This document shows positions 44,166 through 48,804 of a stretch of 48,804 nucleotides of DNA, piece by piece. Position 1 is the stretch's first letter, and every line of letters begins with the position of its first letter. Source of the stretch: Lachnospiraceae bacterium (lineage in GTDB: Bacteria; Bacillota; Clostridia; TANB77; CAG-508); assembly GCA_031262685.1 (NCBI GenBank), contig JAISHG010000121.1, forward strand, positions 1 through 48,804, written 5' to 3'. The notes under the pieces are model-generated. The model was given only the letters and a program-made list of their open reading frames with translations, had not been told where the DNA came from and did no database searches. The position numbers and the translations under genes were made by a program.

Positions 44166-44190
44166 GGTCGCAAATATGCGACCTTTGTTT
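44164..44190. terminator. bidirectional terminator
   Basis: aaggtcgc-aaatat-gcgacctt overlaps both converging stop codons. Confidence 0.65.
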
Positions 44191-44656
44191 AGACTTCCAT
44201 TTGACTACTTAGGAATCCTGCTGCAGATTGAACTACCTTTAGCTCAGTATCTCCCATTTTAGTATTTTGCTCTTTAGAAAGTAGTATTACACTACCTATA
44301 ACATCTCCATCTGAAATTATTGGGTAAATAACTTGTGAATTATATTTTCTATCATTTGTTGTATCGTTTTGCGTAATAGGCAATGTTTGCTGATTGTTAT
44401 CTGTGCTTGTATATACTTGCTTATTTTCCATAACTTTTTCTATTTCCGGACTTAATGTTTGTTCTAACAATTCTTTTTTTGGTCCACCAGATACTGCAAT
44501 AACTGTGTCTTTGTCTGTTATACATGCAATATGACCAGTTGTTCTAGAAAGTGTTTCTGCATAGCCATGTGCAAATTCGGAAAGTTCTCCTATTGGAGAA
44601 TATTTCTTTAAAATAACTTCTCCTTCTTTATCTGTAAAAATCTCTAACGGGTCACC
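44189..44656 (-). pseudogene. spoVT: 3' segment of spoVT (lacks about 30 N-terminal codons of the AbrB-type DNA-binding domain)
   Basis: GDPLEIFTDKEGEVILKKYSPIGELSEFA...VIAVSGG...DGDVIGSVILLSKEQ...SAAGFLSSQME is collinear with SpoVT residues about 31-178. The preceding 34 codons of the ORF have no SpoVT similarity and no RBS. Confidence 0.8.
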
Positions 44657-44726
44657 GTTATTGATAACATTGCTACAAAAAGTTTTGTCTTGATGTTTAG
44701 GCATTTTTTGTACAATTGTAGGGGAG

Positions 44727-46373
44727 CTAATTGCTCGTCCGTTCACTACCATTTTCAATAATTACATCATTTCCAGTTGTTTCAATATTAAAAATAGAAT
44801 TTATATCTCCGCGTAATTTTATAGAAACTCTGTCCTCAAATACAATTATTTTATCAATAATCAATTCCAAGTCTTTTTTAGTTAGTTTTTCTTTATTTAA
44901 TATTTCATCAAATATCTGCAAAGCATCTCTTGAAATGTCTTTTATTCTTTTAGCACTTTCCTTTACTTGTGTGAAATGGTCTAACTGGCTTTGCAAACCA
45001 CGTAACTTATTTGCAAGTTCTGTTTCTAATTCTTCATATATTTCATCAAGTTGTTCTAAATCGTTTGGTGTTTTAAGGCTTTCTCTCAATTTTTGCTTTT
45101 TTAATTGCTTTATTTCTTCTTTGGTAGAATTATAGTCTTTCATTAAAATACTATATAAATCTTTTTTGTCTGTTGTAGTATTTTTTTTGCTTGATAAATC
45201 TTTATTTAATATTTCTATAATATCACTAGAATTTTCTTTTATTCGTTTTACATATCTTTTAACCATTTTATCTAACACAGCAACATGAATATGATGCGAA
45301 GTACAAGCTTTTTTGCCATTTTTATGATAACTTCCACAATAATATGCGTCTGGTCTTTTTCCATTGCTAATAGAGAACATAGGAGCATTACAATCACCAC
45401 AAAAAGTGAAGCCAGAGTAAATGTTGTCGTATTTTTTAACACCCCTATAATTACCATTGCCTCTAGTTTTTCTAATTTCTTGTGCTTTATAAAATACATC
45501 TTTATCTATAATAGGTTCGTGAAAGTCTGGAAAAACATTGTGCATTTCTTTATCTAGTTTTTGGTCATCTCCATTTATTGTTTTTCGTGTGTATTTACCA
45601 GTTCTTAAAGTTCCTATATAAAAGTCATTTTCTAAGATATGAGAAACACTTACAATGCTCCATTCAGTTTTAACTTCTCCATTATATGATTTGCTGTTTT
45701 GCTCTTGTAATTGTTTTGTTCTTAGTCTAGGGGTGGGGATATGTTCATCATTTAGCAAGTTTACTATTTTTTTATACCCCCAACCATTTAAGTATAAATT
45801 GAAAATTCTTTTTATTACTTCGGCAGATTCTTTGTCTATTTCATAACTTTGAGTTTTATAATCTGTAATAATATAACCATAAGGAACAGAACACAACCAT
45901 GTAGCATTTTTTTGTTTATTTGTTATTGTACTTTTGATTTTTTTACTAATATCTTTTACATACAACTCATTATACCAAGTTTTAACACCGAGAGTAATAT
46001 CGTTGTTATCTTGACTTGTATCTATGCTATCATTTATTGCTATAACTCGTTTCCCAAGTTCTTGCATTTCTTCTAAAAATAAAAGAGTTCTAGCATTATG
46101 CCTACCAATTCTTGATAAATCTTTGGCAAGTATAACATCAAACTCATCATTTTCAATTGCAGATTTTAGTTTATTAAAATCTGGTCTATTAAATTTATAA
46201 CCACTATAATTATCATCTTCAAAGATAGTAACAGCATCTACACCAAAATGCTCTTTTGCATAGTCTTTAATGATATTGCTTTGGTTTATAATACTTTCAT
46301 ATCTTTCATTATCTTCATCATAACTAATTCTAGCATATCCTGCTACTCTTAAAACTTGTTCCAATGTTACCAC
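44727..46373 (-). CDS. large serine recombinase (SpoIVCA / phage integrase type)
   Basis: Resolvase N-domain with VAGYARISYDED (catalytic Ser), recombinase domain, zinc ribbon CGDCNAPM...CGSYH...C..HH and a C-terminal coiled coil. The true start is probably TTG 46364, which lies 8 nt after AAGGAG. Confidence 0.9.
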   Translation of the reverse strand: MVTLEQVLRVAGYARISYDEDNERYESIINQSNIIKDYAKEHFGVDAVTIFEDDNYSGYKFNRPDFNKLKSAIENDEFDVILAKDLSRIGRHNARTLLFLEEMQELGKRVIAINDSIDTSQDNNDITLGVKTWYNELYVKDISKKIKSTITNKQKNATWLCSVPYGYIITDYKTQSYEIDKESAEVIKRIFNLYLNGWGYKKIVNLLNDEHIPTPRLRTKQLQEQNSKSYNGEVKTEWSIVSVSHILENDFYIGTLRTGKYTRKTINGDDQKLDKEMHNVFPDFHEPIIDKDVFYKAQEIRKTRGNGNYRGVKKYDNIYSGFTFCGDCNAPMFSISNGKRPDAYYCGSYHKNGKKACTSHHIHVAVLDKMVKRYVKRIKENSSDIIEILNKDLSSKKNTTTDKKDLYSILMKDYNSTKEEIKQLKKQKLRESLKTPNDLEQLDEIYEELETELANKLRGLQSQLDHFTQVKESAKRIKDISRDALQIFDEILNKEKLTKKDLELIIDKIIVFEDRVSIKLRGDINSIFNIETTGNDVIIENGSERTSN

Positions 46374-46412
46374 TCCTTATAAAAGAAACTTATCGAACTC
46401 ATTGTAACATGC

Positions 46413-46450
46413 AATTAGATTAAAAGTAAATATATATTTTTAATCTAATT
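46413..46450 (-). terminator. 13-bp perfect inverted repeat
   Basis: aattagattaaaa-N12-ttttaatctaatt, overlapping the stop codon of the upstream (minus-strand) gene. Confidence 0.5.
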
Positions 46451-46700
46451 ACATTTCTAATTCTTCATATTGTTCTTTATTTTCTCTATCTGCTAGCTGT
46501 TGCAAATTACTAATAAGTAGGGCAGAGGTAATAGGTGTTATTTCTTCTGTACCAGAGTGATACAAGCACACTTTATATTTTAGTTTTCTATATTCATCAA
46601 TAATACTATCTATTGTAGGAGGTATAATTGAATTAGGGTTTTCGTTATAAGTAAACCATAGCTCTATAATTTTATCATCATTATCTATATAAGTTTTCAA
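46449..46700 (-). CDS. hypothetical protein (element-borne)
   Basis: GGAAGGAGG lies 8 nt upstream of TTG 46700. 83 aa. Confidence 0.45.
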   Translation of the reverse strand: MKTYIDNDDKIIELWFTYNENPNSIIPPTIDSIIDEYRKLKYKVCLYHSGTEEITPITSALLISNLQQLADRENKEQYEELEM

Positions 46701-46815
46701 AATATACCTCCTTCCATAAAATATTATTGGCAAAAAATGTAAGATTTATGCGTGCAAAATTAGTGCTAACTCCATTGAATTAGCACTAAAAAAAGCTACA
46801 ATAAACTTTGTAACT

Positions 46816-47271: not shown

Positions 47272-47460
47272 ATCAATTATTACCTCCTTTATTGGTTAAT
47301 TTTTTGTATACGTTTTTGGGGTATAGTTCTAGATACTTGACATTCTTCCGATTTTACTGTAATATTTATTTTGCAATAACTATTACAGATTGTATAGTAA
47401 TAGTTAAAAAATGTCAACTATTACTTGTAAAATTTTCAAAAAAATTTTGAGGTGGAGAAA

Positions 47461-48381
47461 ATGAATAAAAATCTAGTAACAGAATTTAGTACAGAATGGA
47501 TAAAATACAGTGATTATACTACAAAAAGAACAAATGGTTATTCAGATGAATATATTATGCCTGCTAAAAATGCGAAGCCAATAAAATATACAATAGCAGA
47601 CGTTGCAGATGAAATGATAATAGATTATTTGAATATAGGTAAAAAATTTGAATTTGAAAGATTTAATGTGAAAAATGCAATATTAGATTTTGCTAAAAAA
47701 TATGGTTTAATAGGGATTATTTCTTATTTACCATTAAACACAGAGTATACATATAGTGATAAAGTATATTTAAGTGGTAACGATATAGGAATGCTAAAAG
47801 AATGGGATTTAATAGACTATTTAAAACAATTTTTTCCTTTTGAATTTAAGAAAAAATTTAAAGCTACAAAACCAGAAAAGAAGTTCCCGAGGTTACATTT
47901 TCCATCACTTTCAATATCAATGATACAAGAAGAAACAACTGATTCAGATGTGTTTTGGGGAGCAAATCCAGAATTTAGTTTGCCATTTTCAAAATATTAT
48001 GCTGAAAAAATAGATGATATAGGAGCAATAGCAAATGCAGTTTATAACAAATTTAAAGCATCTTACGATTATGATTTCAATACTCCATATCAAGAAAGAA
48101 GTTTTAAAGGTTTTGATTTCTTTAAAGCAAGAAACATAACTATAAATGCAAAAGCAGGAGAGAGCAACTTTTCATTACAATGGGCTTTTAATTCCTTAGC
48201 ATTAGCATTAGATACTATTTTGTTAGTAAAGATATGTGATACAAACCAACCACTTCGTATGTGCAAGTTCTGTAATCAATTCTTTATAGCAGAGAATGTA
48301 AGAGCAGAATACTGTAGCCCACAATGTAGAAATAAGGCAAATGTGTACAAGAGTAGAGAAAAATATAGAGAAGGCATATAA
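47461..48381 (+). CDS. hypothetical protein with C-terminal CGNR-like zinc finger
   Basis: The C-terminus CKFCNQFF...YCSPQCRNKANVYKSRE resembles the CxxC...CxxCxN[RK] zinc-finger pattern. ATG 47461 follows GAGGTGGAG. Confidence 0.5.
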   Translation: MNKNLVTEFSTEWIKYSDYTTKRTNGYSDEYIMPAKNAKPIKYTIADVADEMIIDYLNIGKKFEFERFNVKNAILDFAKKYGLIGIISYLPLNTEYTYSDKVYLSGNDIGMLKEWDLIDYLKQFFPFEFKKKFKATKPEKKFPRLHFPSLSISMIQEETTDSDVFWGANPEFSLPFSKYYAEKIDDIGAIANAVYNKFKASYDYDFNTPYQERSFKGFDFFKARNITINAKAGESNFSLQWAFNSLALALDTILLVKICDTNQPLRMCKFCNQFFIAENVRAEYCSPQCRNKANVYKSREKYREGI

Positions 48382-48419
48382 AAAAATAGCAATTACATTT
48401 TTGTAGTTGCTATTTTACT

Positions 48420-48656
48420 TTAATCATCATCTAAATTCTTAAATAGTTTATCATTATAAAATTCCGTTAAGTCCATACCAAATCCTCTTGCAATTCTTAA
48501 TATTGTTAAACTTCTTGGATTCTTTCTATCTTGTTTTATAATATGGTCTACTGTTGCTTGTGTAATACCTGCCATTGTAGAAAACTTATTTATAGTTATA
48601 TCTCTTTCTTTACATAGATTTAATATTCTTTTTGATATTGCTTCTGATAAGGTCAT
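48420..48656 (-). CDS. XRE-family HTH transcriptional regulator
   Basis: 78 aa. ...ITINKFSTMAGITQATVDHIIKQ... is a Cro/C1-type HTH. Confidence 0.8.
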   Translation of the reverse strand: MTLSEAISKRILNLCKERDITINKFSTMAGITQATVDHIIKQDRKNPRSLTILRIARGFGMDLTEFYNDKLFKNLDDD

Positions 48657-48705
48657 TTTTTAGTCCTCCAACTTTTTTATTGAGTATATCAAATAAATTT
48701 GCAAA

Positions 48706-48773
48706 TTATTACTCCAATTGGATTGACTTTCGCCTCTTATTGTTTTATGATGTTAATACAATTGGAGTAATAA
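48706..48773. promoter_or_regulatory. 15-bp perfect inverted repeat bracketing a rightward promoter
   Basis: ttattactccaattg (48706-48720) and caattggagtaataa (48759-48773). Between them lie TTGACT (48723-48728), a 17-nt spacer and TATGAT (48746-48751). Confidence 0.55.
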
Positions 48774-48804
48774 TTATTTGGGAGGTGAACACATACTATT
48801 TTTT

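What the first reader, a model, noticed from the sequence alone, without database searches (positions are those of the whole stretch)
44189..48804. spoVT split by an element carrying a SpoIVCA-type large serine recombinase
The minus-strand ORF 44189..44758 matches SpoVT from GDPLEIF (about residue 31) to the C-terminus, covering the whole GAF-like domain. The first ~30 residues of the AbrB-type DNA-binding domain (MKATGIVRRIDDLGRVVIPKEIRR...) are missing. They are replaced by unrelated sequence with no RBS. Seventy bp beyond the break (44657-44726) lies the 3' end of a 548-aa large serine recombinase in the same orientation, followed by phage-like HTH/XRE genes and operators. This is the architecture of the skin element in sigK and of SPbeta in spsM. 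In those cases a recombinase excises an intervening element to rebuild a sporulation gene. To my recollection, the known cases interrupt mother-cell genes, whose rearranged chromosome is discarded. spoVT is a forespore (sigma-G) gene, so excision would occur in the chromosome that is inherited. That implies either a dead spoVT, a lysogeny-versus-sporulation trade-off or reversible integration. The junction zone holds small palindromes (ACAAAA-AG-TTTTGT at 44675-44688 and TACAATTGTA at 44711-44720) that are att-core candidates.
Basis: partly seen in the sequence, partly recalled or inferred. Interest (0 to 1): 0.75.

Follow-up and report, generated by a model that had tools for sequence, protein, structure and literature searches.

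The report
Mobile element splitting sporulation gene spoVT
A small mobile DNA element that carries its own cut-and-paste enzyme sits inside spoVT, a regulator the developing spore itself needs, and the same insertion at the same codon is found in at least a hundred gut Clostridia species' genomes, which raises the untested possibility of programmed DNA excision in the bacterial germ line.

Summary
The minus-strand ORF 44189..44758 is SpoVT from Gly31/Asp32 to the C-terminus and lacks the first ~30 residues. A large serine recombinase (LSR, 44727..46364) ends 74 nt upstream on the same strand.

The 5' half lies beyond the contig end. A relative whose LSR is 82% identical (L002) has both halves co-oriented around a 7.3-kb element, and rejoining them in silico gives a full SpoVT.

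The crossover is the GA of GGT-GAC (window 44653-44652), inside the palindrome TAACGG-TGAC-CCGTTA.

The LSR clade is large. Of 127 loci with a complete LSR, 106 have the spoVT 3' piece directly after it. In 104 of these the LSR ORF runs in frame into SpoVT, because attP lies inside the LSR gene. The window is an exception, with a frameshift and a TAG stop.

A conserved ~80-aa protein of unknown family sits upstream of the LSR. It is preceded by a promoter-like motif (GCATA-N18-AATAATA) that matches spoVT's own forespore-type promoters.

Shown: an LSR integrative element inserted in spoVT. Inferred: sporulation-controlled, probably forespore, excision that rebuilds spoVT. I found no paper describing this.

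The parts
44189..44653 (-). Host-derived 3' segment of spoVT (Asp32 to stop). It holds the second half of the AbrB-type domain and the whole GAF-like SpoVT_C domain.
   Evidence: TIGR02851 profile positions 26-180 and PF15714. 83-89% identical to intact 184-185-aa orthologs. Reaches 262.8 bits once 31 N-terminal residues are restored.
44164..44185 (-). Terminator-like hairpin plus T-run just after the spoVT stop codon.
   Evidence: AAGGTCGCATATTTGCGACCTT followed by ATGCTTTTTT.
44630..44675 (-). attR. The element-side P arm is 44675-44654 (GCAATGTTATCAATAACGGT), the central dinucleotide GA is 44653-44652, and the host B' arm is 44651-44630. The local palindrome TAACGG-TGAC-CCGTTA spans 44660-44645.
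   Evidence: Inferred by homology with attL, attR and attB of L002 and L009. The deduced attP of L002 is a 46-bp imperfect palindrome centred on GA. The P-arm logo from 96 distinct junctions shows conserved third-codon positions. The palindrome was detected.
44657..44725 (-). Element-encoded linker remnant (SPTIVQKMPKHQDKTFCSNVINN). It is read in the spoVT frame and is out of frame with the LSR in this window.
   Evidence: Homologous to the in-frame linker of P0002, P0005 and others, with the motif QKxPKHxDKxF..NVIxxG. In 104 of 106 related loci the frame is continuous.
44727..46364 (-). Large serine recombinase gene (545 aa from TTG, stop TAG 44729-44727).
   Evidence: PF00239, PF07508 and PF13408. 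R12 and S14 are invariant in alignment A1. Identical to public gene call P0001.
46409..46454 (.). 23+23-nt palindrome between the small ORF stop and the LSR start. It may be a transcription stop, an attenuator or a binding site.
   Evidence: I3, 87% complementary. Hairpins at the same position occur in L003, L013, L016 and L024.
46449..46700 (-). Conserved small ORF (83 aa from TTG 46700, motif IELWFT...YHSGTE). Candidate recombination directionality factor.
   Evidence: Sits directly upstream of the LSR in 44 of 88 loci. The family has at least 237 clusters at 50% identity. No Pfam or PDB match. Confident AF2 model with no structural neighbour.
46722..46751 (-). Sporulation (forespore sigF/sigG-type) promoter-like motif GCATA(46751-46747)-N18-AATAATA(46728-46722). 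Its -10 element ends 21 nt before the small-ORF start codon.
   Evidence: The motif is enriched and positionally fixed across 32 non-redundant loci. The same pattern occurs in spoVT promoters of these taxa.
46760..46789 (-). Hairpin (13-bp arms) followed by TTTT. It separates the upstream 151-aa ORF from the small-ORF promoter.
   Evidence: (I6), plus the sequence read.
46816..47271 (-). Element ORF of 151 aa, function unknown. Homologs occur in L002 and L003.
   Evidence: No Pfam or PHROG family of note.
47377..47425 (.). Three 10-mer operator-like repeats overlapping the sigma70-like promoter TTGACA-17-TACAAT (47417-47389, minus strand).
   Evidence: I7, I8.
47452..48381 (+). Element ORF of 309 aa, unknown function, with a weak HNH-like C-terminus.
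48420..48656 (-). XRE-type HTH regulator (78 aa).
   Evidence: PF01381 and PF13443. PHROG transcriptional regulator or repressor families.
48704..48775 (.). 24-nt inverted repeat (92% complementary) in the divergent control region. The element continues past the contig end at 48804.
   Evidence: I2. L001 is identical to 46318-48804 and starts at the same base where the window ends.

Best explanation
SHOWN. The right end of an integrative element lies in the window from the crossover at 44653/44652 to beyond the contig end at 48804. It is inserted in spoVT at the GA of codons Gly31-Asp32 by a large serine recombinase (LSR) encoded at its edge.

This LSR belongs to a large clade, seen in Ruminococcus, Oscillospiraceae, Lachnospiraceae and other Clostridia, that is dedicated to this one site. 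The clade's attP lies inside the 3' end of the LSR gene. Integration therefore swaps the LSR's last ~25 residues for SpoVT residues 32-180. The reciprocal product is SpoVT(1-31) fused to that short tail. In this window a frameshift has uncoupled the two reading frames, but the LSR core is intact.

INFERRED. The element behaves like skin, SPbeta or gin. The LSR is made at a low level. A small conserved protein encoded just upstream acts as the directionality factor. That gene is driven by a sporulation promoter of the same forespore type (sigF/sigG) as spoVT itself.

On this model, in the developing spore the element is excised precisely, spoVT is rebuilt and expressed from its own promoter, and spore maturation proceeds. 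Because the forespore does not divide, the excised circle could stay in the spore and re-integrate at germination, since an LSR alone catalyses attP x attB.
For: Insertion and site:
- Searches show a truncated but otherwise orthologous SpoVT.
- Searches show both halves and the shared core in L002. Searches show the empty site. Searches show that in-silico excision restores a SpoVT above the equivalog cut-off.
- Searches give the conserved P arm and the dyad centred on GA.
- In L008 and L110 the central dinucleotide is flipped (TC) and the element is inverted, as LSR chemistry predicts.

Clade:
- 109 of the 120 best protein clusters carry SpoVT_C.
- In the first 87 loci, 79 had the adjacent 3' piece and 78 were fused in frame. 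In the pooled 127 loci, 106 had it and 104 were fused.

The gene is still alive:
- 3' pieces are intact in 104 of 106 loci. Median dN/dS is 0.15, including 153 pairs in which LSR dS is similar to spoVT dS.

Regulation:
- The small ORF family sits upstream of the LSR in 44 of 88 loci.
- Its upstream regions are enriched for GHATR-N17/18-CATxHTA. The mean best score is 10.03 against 9.14 +/- 0.12 in shuffles (z = 7.5). The sigA pattern gives z = 0.3 and sigK z = 1.4.
- A score of at least 10 of 12 at a fixed distance from the start codon occurs in 50% of these loci against 10% of 218 control gene upstreams.
- A G lies three bases before the -10 element in 14 of 21 loci. This base was not part of the search pattern and is the sigF hallmark described in PMC3789822.
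- spoVT promoters in the same taxa read G[CTA]ATA-N17-AATA[CA]TA.
- A hairpin follows the small ORF in several loci, as expected if only the directionality factor is developmentally controlled.

Natural activity:
- LSR ORFs running through an intact attP (attP-form junctions) occur in contigs L063, L077, L030 and L006.
Against: - No experiment or read-level evidence of excision exists for this or any related element.
- The window lacks the 5' half and attL. The host genome could carry a second spoVT.
- The window's LSR has lost the family's conserved in-frame tail, so this copy may be impaired.
- The sigE pattern is also enriched (z = 6.0), so the forespore assignment rests on the -10 details and the upstream G.
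- The small protein has no similarity to any known directionality factor.
- Excision in the germ-line compartment risks loss of the element, and re-integration is pure conjecture.
- Many carriers are Ruminococcus species. I know of no report of sporulation in, for example, R. flavefaciens (my own knowledge, not checked here).
- L038 has a degenerate attL (centre GC), so at least some copies are immobilised.
- Low dN/dS could largely predate the insertions.
Confidence: 0.5

Rival explanations
1. An ordinary integrative (mobilizable) element or prophage that uses a conserved stretch of spoVT as a landing site. spoVT is simply inactivated while the element is present, at the cost of sporulation, or at no cost in lineages that no longer sporulate. 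Excision serves only horizontal transfer and is not tied to development.
For: Cargo near the LSR in 39 loci includes relaxases (MobA/VirD2 in 4, Mob_Pre in 2), primase-like genes, Fic, RhuM and restriction enzymes. A few members lie in IMG/VR contigs with tail genes. Many carriers are Ruminococcus and Oscillospiraceae MAGs. attP-form copies and a degenerate attL exist. Targeting of conserved genes is common for LSR elements (general knowledge).
Against: A sporulation-type rather than sigA-type promoter motif sits at a fixed position before the conserved small gene next to the LSR, and it matches spoVT's own promoters. Intact 3' spoVT pieces occur in 104 of 106 loci, with dN/dS of 0.15. In C. 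difficile, loss of spoVT abolishes heat-resistant spores (PMC3789822), so permanent disruption would be costly for a spore-transmitted gut anaerobe.
Confidence: 0.3
2. In this particular window the element is a grounded remnant. The frameshift and TAG stop that cut the LSR off from its conserved C-terminal linker have crippled recombination, so spoVT is permanently dead in this strain.
For: The window and L016 are the only 2 of 106 loci where the LSR-SpoVT reading frame is broken. The linker is still recognisable in the other frame, which suggests a recent mutation. Both available assemblies stop inside the element.
Against: All three LSR domains, the catalytic R12 and S14, and the region up to about residue 530 are intact. 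Some family members, such as P0003, naturally lack the QKxPKHxDKxF linker. The spoVT 3' piece, small ORF, promoter motif and P arm are all intact.
Confidence: 0.12
3. The LSR-SpoVT_C chimera is itself the functional point. The host GAF-like domain fused to the recombinase, or the reciprocal SpoVT(1-31)-tail peptide made from the spoVT promoter, senses the forespore state or biases the enzyme towards excision. This would be a directionality switch written by the recombination event itself.
For: The in-frame fusion is kept in 104 of 106 loci despite 40-80% LSR divergence and linker length changes that are always multiples of three. The short tail after attP is an open frame of similar length in L002, L016, L038, L063, P0003, L030 and L077.
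Against: Continuity of the frame follows automatically if attP lies inside the ORF in the spoVT frame. Opposite-orientation members (L008, L110) fuse the LSR to antisense spoVT and so do without the GAF domain. The window has no fusion. Tail conservation near the junction is explained by the P' arm DNA.
Confidence: 0.07
4. There is no insertion. The ORF is a natural N-terminally short, GAF-only SpoVT paralog that happens to follow a recombinase gene.
For: The window never shows the 5' half.
Against: The listed homologs other than the window's own truncated call carry the AbrB-type domain as well as SpoVT_C. The break falls in the middle of the AbrB-type domain. Both halves flank the element in L002, L016 and L038, and rejoining L002 gives a full SpoVT.
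Confidence: 0.01

Closest known systems
skin element in sigK (B. subtilis SpoIVCA; C. difficile CD1231 with directionality factor CD1234)
   Same: An LSR gene sits at the edge of an element that splits a sporulation regulator into co-oriented halves. Precise excision would rebuild the ORF. Cargo differs between hosts (bioRxiv 10.1101/2022.02.25.481979; PMC5025042).
   Different: sigK is a mother-cell gene and skin is excised only in the terminal mother cell. spoVT is a forespore (sigF/sigG) gene. Here attP lies inside the LSR ORF, so the ORF fuses to the target gene. Excision has not been shown.
SPbeta prophage in spsM (SprA/SprB) and gin in gerE (GirC/GirX)
   Same: A small gene next to the LSR gene acts as the directionality factor, and its sporulation-specific promoter times excision (PMC4191935, PMC5499854, PMC5595907). 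gin is likewise not a prophage.
   Different: The promoters there are mother-cell promoters. The small protein here belongs to an unrelated, uncharacterised family, and its role is only inferred from position and conservation.
Listeria phi10403S/A118 in comK (active lysogeny)
   Same: This is the model for reversible excision and re-integration of an LSR element in a cell line that survives, which is what a forespore excision would need (my own knowledge, not checked here).
   Different: That case is triggered in phagosomes, not in development, and there is no ORF fusion.
SSV1-type archaeal integrases (attP inside the int gene)
   Same: The recombination site lies within the recombinase coding sequence, so integration rewrites the recombinase gene (my own knowledge, not checked here).
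   Different: SSV1 has a tyrosine recombinase, targets a tRNA gene, and integration splits the int gene in two. Here only the last ~25 codons are exchanged and the LSR stays whole.
Anabaena fdxN element (XisF)
   Same: LSR-mediated developmental excision. The NCBIfam XisF model is among the hits to the window LSR (90.8 bits, far below its 375-bit cut-off).
   Different: Excision there occurs in terminal heterocysts, and the window LSR is not an XisF ortholog.

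Membership tests
Large serine recombinase (serine integrase) | N-terminal resolvase catalytic domain, recombinase domain and zinc-ribbon domain | tested here: met
   PF00239 1.2e-24, PF07508 6.9e-25, PF13408 3.6e-13
Large serine recombinase (serine integrase) | Catalytic serine in the R-x-S motif near the N-terminus | tested here: met
   YARIS; R12 and S14 are invariant in alignment A1
Large serine recombinase (serine integrase) | Short (~40-50 bp) att sites with imperfect dyad symmetry around a 2-bp crossover, whose polarity sets orientation | tested here: met
   The attP deduced for L002 is a 46-bp imperfect palindrome centred on GA. The window palindrome TAACGG-TGAC-CCGTTA is at 44660-44645. 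Members with a flipped TC centre are inserted in the opposite orientation. All of this is in silico.
Large serine recombinase (serine integrase) | Coiled-coil motif inserted in the zinc-ribbon domain | not tested
   The region around residues 385-480 is charged and helix-like by eye, but no prediction was run.
SpoVT (TIGR02851 equivalog) | AbrB-type swapped-hairpin N-terminal DNA-binding domain | tested here: not met
   No PF04014 or TIGR01439 hit in the window ORF, and profile positions 1-25 are absent. The window ORF is therefore a gene fragment, not a SpoVT.
SpoVT (TIGR02851 equivalog) | GAF-like SpoVT_C domain and a whole-protein score above 235.9 bits | tested here: inconclusive
   The SpoVT_C domain is present (163.9 bits). 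The fragment scores 194.9 bits, below the cut-off. With 31 restored residues it scores 262.8, and the rejoined L002 gene scores 257.7.
Sporulation gene-intervening element (skin, SPbeta, vfbin, vrin, gin, yabG element) | The element splits a sporulation gene into co-oriented 5' and 3' segments | tested here: inconclusive
   The window shows only the 3' junction. The feature is met in relatives L002, L016 and L038; L063 has the co-oriented 5' piece but its contig ends before the 3' piece.
Sporulation gene-intervening element (skin, SPbeta, vfbin, vrin, gin, yabG element) | Site-specific recombinase gene at the element edge next to a gene segment | tested here: met
   The LSR stop codon is 74 nt from the Gly31 codon.
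Sporulation gene-intervening element (skin, SPbeta, vfbin, vrin, gin, yabG element) | Precise excision reconstitutes the intact ORF | tested here: met
   In silico only, for L002: a 184-aa product scoring 257.7 bits, identical at the junction to intact orthologs.
Sporulation gene-intervening element (skin, SPbeta, vfbin, vrin, gin, yabG element) | The interrupted gene is mother-cell specific and excision is confined to the terminal mother cell | tested here: not met
   spoVT is sigF/sigG-controlled in C. difficile (PMC3789822) and sigG-controlled in B. subtilis (my own knowledge). The known cases are mother-cell genes.
Sporulation gene-intervening element (skin, SPbeta, vfbin, vrin, gin, yabG element) | Directionality factor expressed from a sporulation-specific promoter | tested here: inconclusive
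   A conserved small gene and an enriched, positionally fixed sporulation-type promoter motif are present. There are no functional data.
Sporulation gene-intervening element (skin, SPbeta, vfbin, vrin, gin, yabG element) | Excision observed during sporulation | not testable with these tools
   This needs PCR or long reads on sporulating cells and spores.
Temperate prophage | Structural, packaging and lysis genes | tested here: not met
   None are found in the visible 4.1 kb. None are among the top families in 126 ORFs from 39 related loci. Only a few IMG/VR members have tail genes. The rest of the window's element is unseen.
Integrative mobilizable element | Relaxase and/or oriT plus an integrase | tested here: inconclusive
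   Relaxase domains occur in 6 of 126 ORFs from related loci. None is present in the visible part of the window's element.
Recombination directionality factor | Binds the cognate LSR and switches it to attL x attR. No shared sequence or fold defines the class. | not testable with these tools
   The small ORF has no Pfam or PDB relative. The AF2 model (pLDDT 88.8) has no Foldseek match below E = 0.08.

The most novel reading that the evidence does not exclude
A germ-line developmental rearrangement. In the forespore, a sigF/sigG-driven small protein would switch the LSR to excision and spoVT would be rebuilt in the chromosome that is inherited. The non-replicating circle would be trapped in the dormant spore and re-integrate at germination. 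Because attP lies inside the LSR gene, each recombination would rewrite the enzyme's own C-terminus (SpoVT GAF domain in the integrated state, a ~25-residue tail in the free state). It would also create or destroy a SpoVT(1-31)-tail peptide made from the spoVT promoter, which could act as a built-in record of state or a control of directionality.
Probability: 0.2. Interest if true: 0.92.

Novelty: new variant of a known kind. Interest (0 to 1): 0.78.

Why it matters
All described sporulation gene-intervening elements interrupt mother-cell genes, so their excision never touches the inherited chromosome. A large, conserved family that interrupts a forespore regulator breaks that rule.

If excision is developmental, it would be a programmed and probably reversible DNA rearrangement in the bacterial germ line. 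If it is not, a widespread class of elements switches off spore maturation in gut Clostridia, which bears on how these commensals transmit between hosts and on the repeated loss of sporulation.

There are two practical points. The clade offers many natural LSR and att pairs, with a defined 46-bp site in a gene conserved across Clostridia, that could serve as integration tools. Public annotations currently label the 718-750-aa chimeric ORFs as 'stage V sporulation T C-terminal domain-containing protein' and do not flag spoVT as interrupted.

Tried and rejected
- **Extending the window.** Exact look-ups of the window's LSR failed twice (GTG start without the stop, and the TTG-start reference). 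The XRE protein gave only a 2.5-kb Logan contig that ends at the same base as the window. The metagenome scan found nothing closer than 56% identity. The 5' half and attL of this particular element were therefore not recovered.
- **5' spoVT piece inside the window.** tblastn found none. The hit at 5790-5933 is AbrB.
Rejected. They lie at or outside the outer edge of the P arm, and the conserved dyad is centred on 44653-44652.
- **Host taxonomy.** The RecA cluster members carried no names.
- **Small ORF with a 4-sequence alignment.** The AF2 model was poor (pLDDT 56.6). It was redone with 89 sequences. Foldseek against PDB and BFVD gave no significant match, and the PDB profile and Pfam searches were empty.
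- **Failed scripts.** Two scripts timed out: the first dN/dS run and the RNA folding of intergenic regions. One crashed. The dN/dS run was repeated successfully. The folding was replaced by a repeat search.
- **Literature.** Six of the seven searches were aimed at spoVT-interrupting elements or LSR-SpoVT_C fusions and found none. The other, on forespore excision of gene-intervening elements, returned only the known mother-cell cases. One further query was rejected by the tool. The library covers open-access papers only.
- **GAF-only paralog idea.** Rejected.

Full report
**1. What is in the window**

The minus-strand ORF 44189..44758 translates to a protein whose residues 31-188 match the SpoVT equivalog model TIGR02851 at profile positions 26-180 of 180. 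It scores 194.9 bits against a cut-off of 235.9. It also matches PF15714 SpoVT_C at 2.4e-48, and it has no AbrB-type domain. Similarity to B. subtilis SpoVT begins at GDPLEIF, residue 31.

Immediately upstream on the same strand lies a large serine recombinase (LSR) with Resolvase, Recombinase and Zn_ribbon_recom domains. It is 545 aa from the TTG at 46364, as in the public gene call P0001. Its TAG stop is at 44729-44727.

The rest of the window up to 48804 carries:
- an 83-aa ORF (46449..46700);
- a 151-aa ORF;
- a divergent 309-aa ORF;
- an XRE-type regulator, with operator-like repeats nearby.

GC content is about 27-28% on both sides of the junction. No 5' spoVT segment exists in the window. 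The AbrB-like hit at 5790-5933 is a separate AbrB gene. Downstream of spoVT lie a 225-aa ORF with no family match, scpA, recX and recA, all on the opposite strand.

**2. Is it really a split gene?**

The closest homologs of the 3' piece are intact SpoVT proteins of 184-185 aa. They are 83-89% identical and carry both the AbrB-type and SpoVT_C domains.

The nearest relative of the LSR is P0002, 82% identical. Its contig L002 has a 5' spoVT piece at 2068-2166 (LKATGVVRRIDDLGRIVIPKEIRRTLRIKEGEP) and the 3' piece at 9413-9877, on the same strand and 7.3 kb apart. The two junctions share the core GAAGGTGA.

Loci L009-L011 carry an uninterrupted spoVT followed by the same genes as L002 (HD_5, Aminotran_5 and a 110-aa ORF). 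They represent the empty site.

Joining the left side of attL to the right side of attR in L002 gives a 184-aa protein that scores 257.7 bits on TIGR02851. The window's 3' piece with 31 borrowed N-terminal residues scores 262.8. L016, L038 and L063 also have a co-oriented 5' piece 5-9.5 kb upstream of the LSR; L016 and L038 also have the 3' piece after it (element sizes about 6.9 and 11.1 kb), while the L063 contig ends first. The rival of a natural GAF-only paralog is therefore rejected.

**3. The attachment site**

The attP deduced for L002 is TTCCAATGTTATCAATGAAGG-TGA-ACCACCATTGAACCCATTGGAA. It is a 46-bp imperfect palindrome whose centre is the dinucleotide GA.

In the window the same P arm (GCAATGTTATCAATAACGGT) abuts GA at 44653-44652, within codons Gly31 and Asp32. 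The scan found the local palindrome TAACGG-TGAC-CCGTTA at 44660-44645, centred on that GA.

Across 96 distinct junction sequences the P arm consensus is TGTCAATGTTATCAGTGAnGGyGA|CCC. Third-codon positions are conserved, which indicates a DNA site. Further upstream, a KDKV(F/L/Y) motif looks conserved at the protein level.

Two members, L008 and L110, are inserted at the same codon in the opposite orientation. In L008, whose junction was read, the dinucleotide following the P arm is TC, the reverse complement of GA, exactly as LSR chemistry predicts.

**4. An unexpected family feature**

Of the 120 best protein clusters related to the LSR, 109 are proteins of about 645-765 aa (mostly 718-751) that also carry SpoVT_C.

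A scan of one genome per GTDB species found at least 569 genomes with a relative of the LSR. Not all of these need be inserted in spoVT. Among the 80 best loci, plus those from the metagenome scan:
- 127 loci have a complete LSR;
- 106 of these have the spoVT 3' piece directly after it;
- in 104 of those the LSR ORF continues in frame, without a stop, to the end of spoVT.

The carriers include Ruminococcus (among them R. flavefaciens 007c and ATCC 19208), Oscillospiraceae, Lachnospiraceae, Eubacterium sp. MSJ-21 and Hominimerdicola.

The reason for the fusion is that attP lies inside the 3' end of the LSR gene, in the spoVT reading frame. Copies in which the LSR ORF still runs through an intact attP (attP-form copies: P0003/L006, L030, L077, and the contig end of L063) read through attP into a short tail of about 25 residues. 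The same tail follows the 5' spoVT piece at attL in L002, L016, L038 and L063.

Integration therefore exchanges C-termini between the recombinase and SpoVT. The window and L016 are the only exceptions to the in-frame rule. In the window a +1 frame difference and a TAG stop separate the LSR from the linker SPTIVQKMPKHQDKTFCSNVINN. That linker is still intact in the spoVT frame, and an ATG at 44752 overlaps the LSR end. There is no long homopolymer at the shift, so it is probably a real and recent mutation. The LSR core is complete.

**5. What kind of element**

The visible cargo has no phage structural genes. In 126 ORFs taken within about 5 kb upstream of the LSR in 39 non-redundant loci, the recurrent families are relaxases, primase-like proteins, AAA_14/DUF4143, Fic, RhuM, restriction enzymes and radical-SAM proteins.

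IMG/VR holds only seven loci of this clade. Three have the spoVT piece, and tail sheath and tail-protein families were hit among the ORFs of five of them. The clade is therefore mostly small integrative, often mobilizable, islands, with a few prophages. That variable cargo resembles what has been reported for skin elements.

**6. Evidence bearing on mechanism**

*(a) A conserved small gene.* A small ORF of 62-86 aa, with the motif xEIWLT…(Y/F)xSG..DL…T..LL..N, lies directly upstream of the LSR in 44 of 88 loci.
- Its family has at least 237 clusters at 50% identity.
- It has no Pfam or PDB relative.
- A confident AF2 model (pLDDT 88.8, beta-beta-alpha-beta followed by a long helix) has no structural neighbour.
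- Its position mirrors sprB-sprA. GirX-GirC is a comparable small-RDF/LSR pair, though its gene order was not checked here (PMC4191935, PMC5595907).

*(b) A promoter-like motif.* The 80-120 nt upstream of this ORF in 32 non-redundant loci are enriched for the forespore-type pattern GHATR-N17/18-CATxHTA.
- The mean best score is 10.03 against 9.14 +/- 0.12 in shuffles (z = 7.5). Other patterns give z = 5.6 (sigF), 6.0 (sigE), 1.4 (sigK) and 0.3 (sigA).
- In half of the loci a match of at least 10 of 12 ends 15-26 nt before the start codon. Only 10% of 218 control gene upstreams from the same loci do so.
- When 21 loci are aligned on the motif, a G lies three bases before the -10 element in 14 of them. 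That base was not part of the search pattern, and it is the feature that Saujet et al. give as distinguishing sigF promoters.

*(c) Match to spoVT's own promoters.* In these taxa the spoVT promoters read G[CTA]ATA-N17-AATA[CA]TA. The window's small-ORF motif is GCATA(46751-46747)-N18-AATAATA(46728-46722).

*(d) Flanking hairpins.* A hairpin precedes this motif (46789-46760). A 23-nt palindrome (46409-46454) follows the small ORF, and similar hairpins occur in other loci. This suggests that the small gene is a separate, regulated unit.

*(e) The 3' pieces look functional.* They show no decay (104 of 106 intact) and have a median dN/dS of 0.15. This includes 153 pairs whose LSR dS is similar to their spoVT dS.

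*(f) Signs of activity and of decay.* The attP-form junctions in assembled contigs (L063, L077) hint at circular or tandem forms. L038 has a degenerate attL with a GC centre, which suggests an immobilised copy.

**7. Interpretation**

*Shown:* an LSR integrative element is inserted in spoVT at a defined dinucleotide. It is one member of a very large site-specific clade, with attP embedded in the recombinase ORF.

*Inferred:* excision is timed by a sporulation promoter of the spoVT (forespore) type in front of a putative directionality factor, and it rebuilds spoVT in the compartment where the gene is needed.

*Conjecture:* the circle survives in the non-dividing forespore and re-integrates at germination.

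The main rival is a plain integrative element whose carriers tolerate the loss of spoVT. For this window specifically, the copy may also be crippled by the frameshift. The sigE pattern is enriched too, and nothing here is experimental.

**8. Comparison with what is known, and novelty**

The published gene-intervening elements retrieved here all interrupt mother-cell genes and are excised in the terminal mother cell:
- skin in sigK, SPbeta in spsM, vfbin in spoVFB, vrin in spoVR and gin in gerE (PMC4191935, PMC5595907, PMC6957869);
- an insertion element in yabG, seen only as a reference title; that yabG is a mother-cell gene is my own knowledge.

spoVT is sigF/sigG-dependent, and in C. difficile it is required for heat-resistant spores (PMC3789822). 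Six searches aimed at spoVT-interrupting elements or LSR-SpoVT_C fusions in the open-access library found none, and a further search on forespore excision returned only the mother-cell cases.

I rate this a new variant of a known kind, for three reasons: the same enzymology and architecture as the known elements, a different developmental compartment for the target gene, and an unusual attP placed inside the recombinase ORF.

Noticed in passing
window 46409-46454: A 23+23-nt near-perfect palindrome lies exactly between the stop of the small ORF and the LSR start. Hairpins at the equivalent place occur in L003 (with a T-run), L013, L016 and L024.
   Followed up: partly
window 47377-47425 and 48704-48775: Three 10-mers (TAACTATTAC / GTAATAGTTA) spaced 10 nt apart overlap a near-consensus sigma70-like promoter (TTGACA-17-TACAAT, 47417-47389, minus strand). 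A separate 24-nt inverted repeat sits between the XRE gene and a plus-strand gene that runs off the contig. Both look like repressor operators.
   Followed up: no
window 46318-48804 = L001 1-2487: A Logan contig (SRR14710920) is 100% identical to this stretch and begins at the very base where the window ends. Two assemblies therefore break at the same point inside the element, which could reflect a repeat, strain variation or shared reads.
   Followed up: partly
L008 8316-10196 and L110 1654-3458: The same LSR clade is inserted at the same spoVT codon in the opposite orientation, so the LSR ORF reads into the reverse complement of the 5' spoVT piece. In L008, whose junction was read, the dinucleotide after the P arm is TC instead of GA.
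   Followed up: yes
L063 1348-1520 and 10001-11776: This locus has attL (5' spoVT plus tail) together with an LSR that reads into an attP-type tail just before the contig ends. That suggests a tandem copy, or reads from an excised circle, in a Ruminococcus MAG.
   Followed up: partly
L077 10001-11761 and 14542-15084: An LSR with an intact attP and a short tail lies 2.8 kb upstream of an intact spoVT. A chemotaxis-receptor-like gene sits between them. This is unexplained.
   Followed up: partly
L006/L012 9747-11683: Only the small ORF and an attP-form LSR lie between clpA and a metallo-beta-lactamase-fold gene, with housekeeping genes (ATP synthase, Rnf) around them. This looks like a stranded or minimal two-gene module.
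   Followed up: no
L038 543-700: attL has the centre GC instead of GA and the change E30M, whereas attR has GA. The central dinucleotides do not match, which should block excision, so this copy is probably immobilised.
   Followed up: partly
L002 9290-9350: The LSR-SpoVT linker of P0002 carries an in-frame insert of about 60 nt with two 7-8-bp hairpins (GGGCGAAC..GTTCGCCC and GGCGTTC..GAACGCC). It resembles a small repeat-element insertion that kept the reading frame open.
   Followed up: no
P0116 (Anaerotruncus massiliensis, 85 contigs) and similar records: Public annotation names the 718-aa chimeric ORF 'stage V sporulation T C-terminal domain-containing protein'. The name does not indicate that spoVT is interrupted.
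   Followed up: no
window 5685-5999 and 6149-6949: An AbrB gene and a response regulator with weak similarity to Spo0A (60.7 bits, cut-off 200) lie next to each other. A XerC/XerD-type tyrosine recombinase is at 8750-9718.
   Followed up: no
L002 1592-1968: ToxN-like (abortive infection) ORFs lie immediately upstream of the 5' spoVT piece, outside the element.
   Followed up: no
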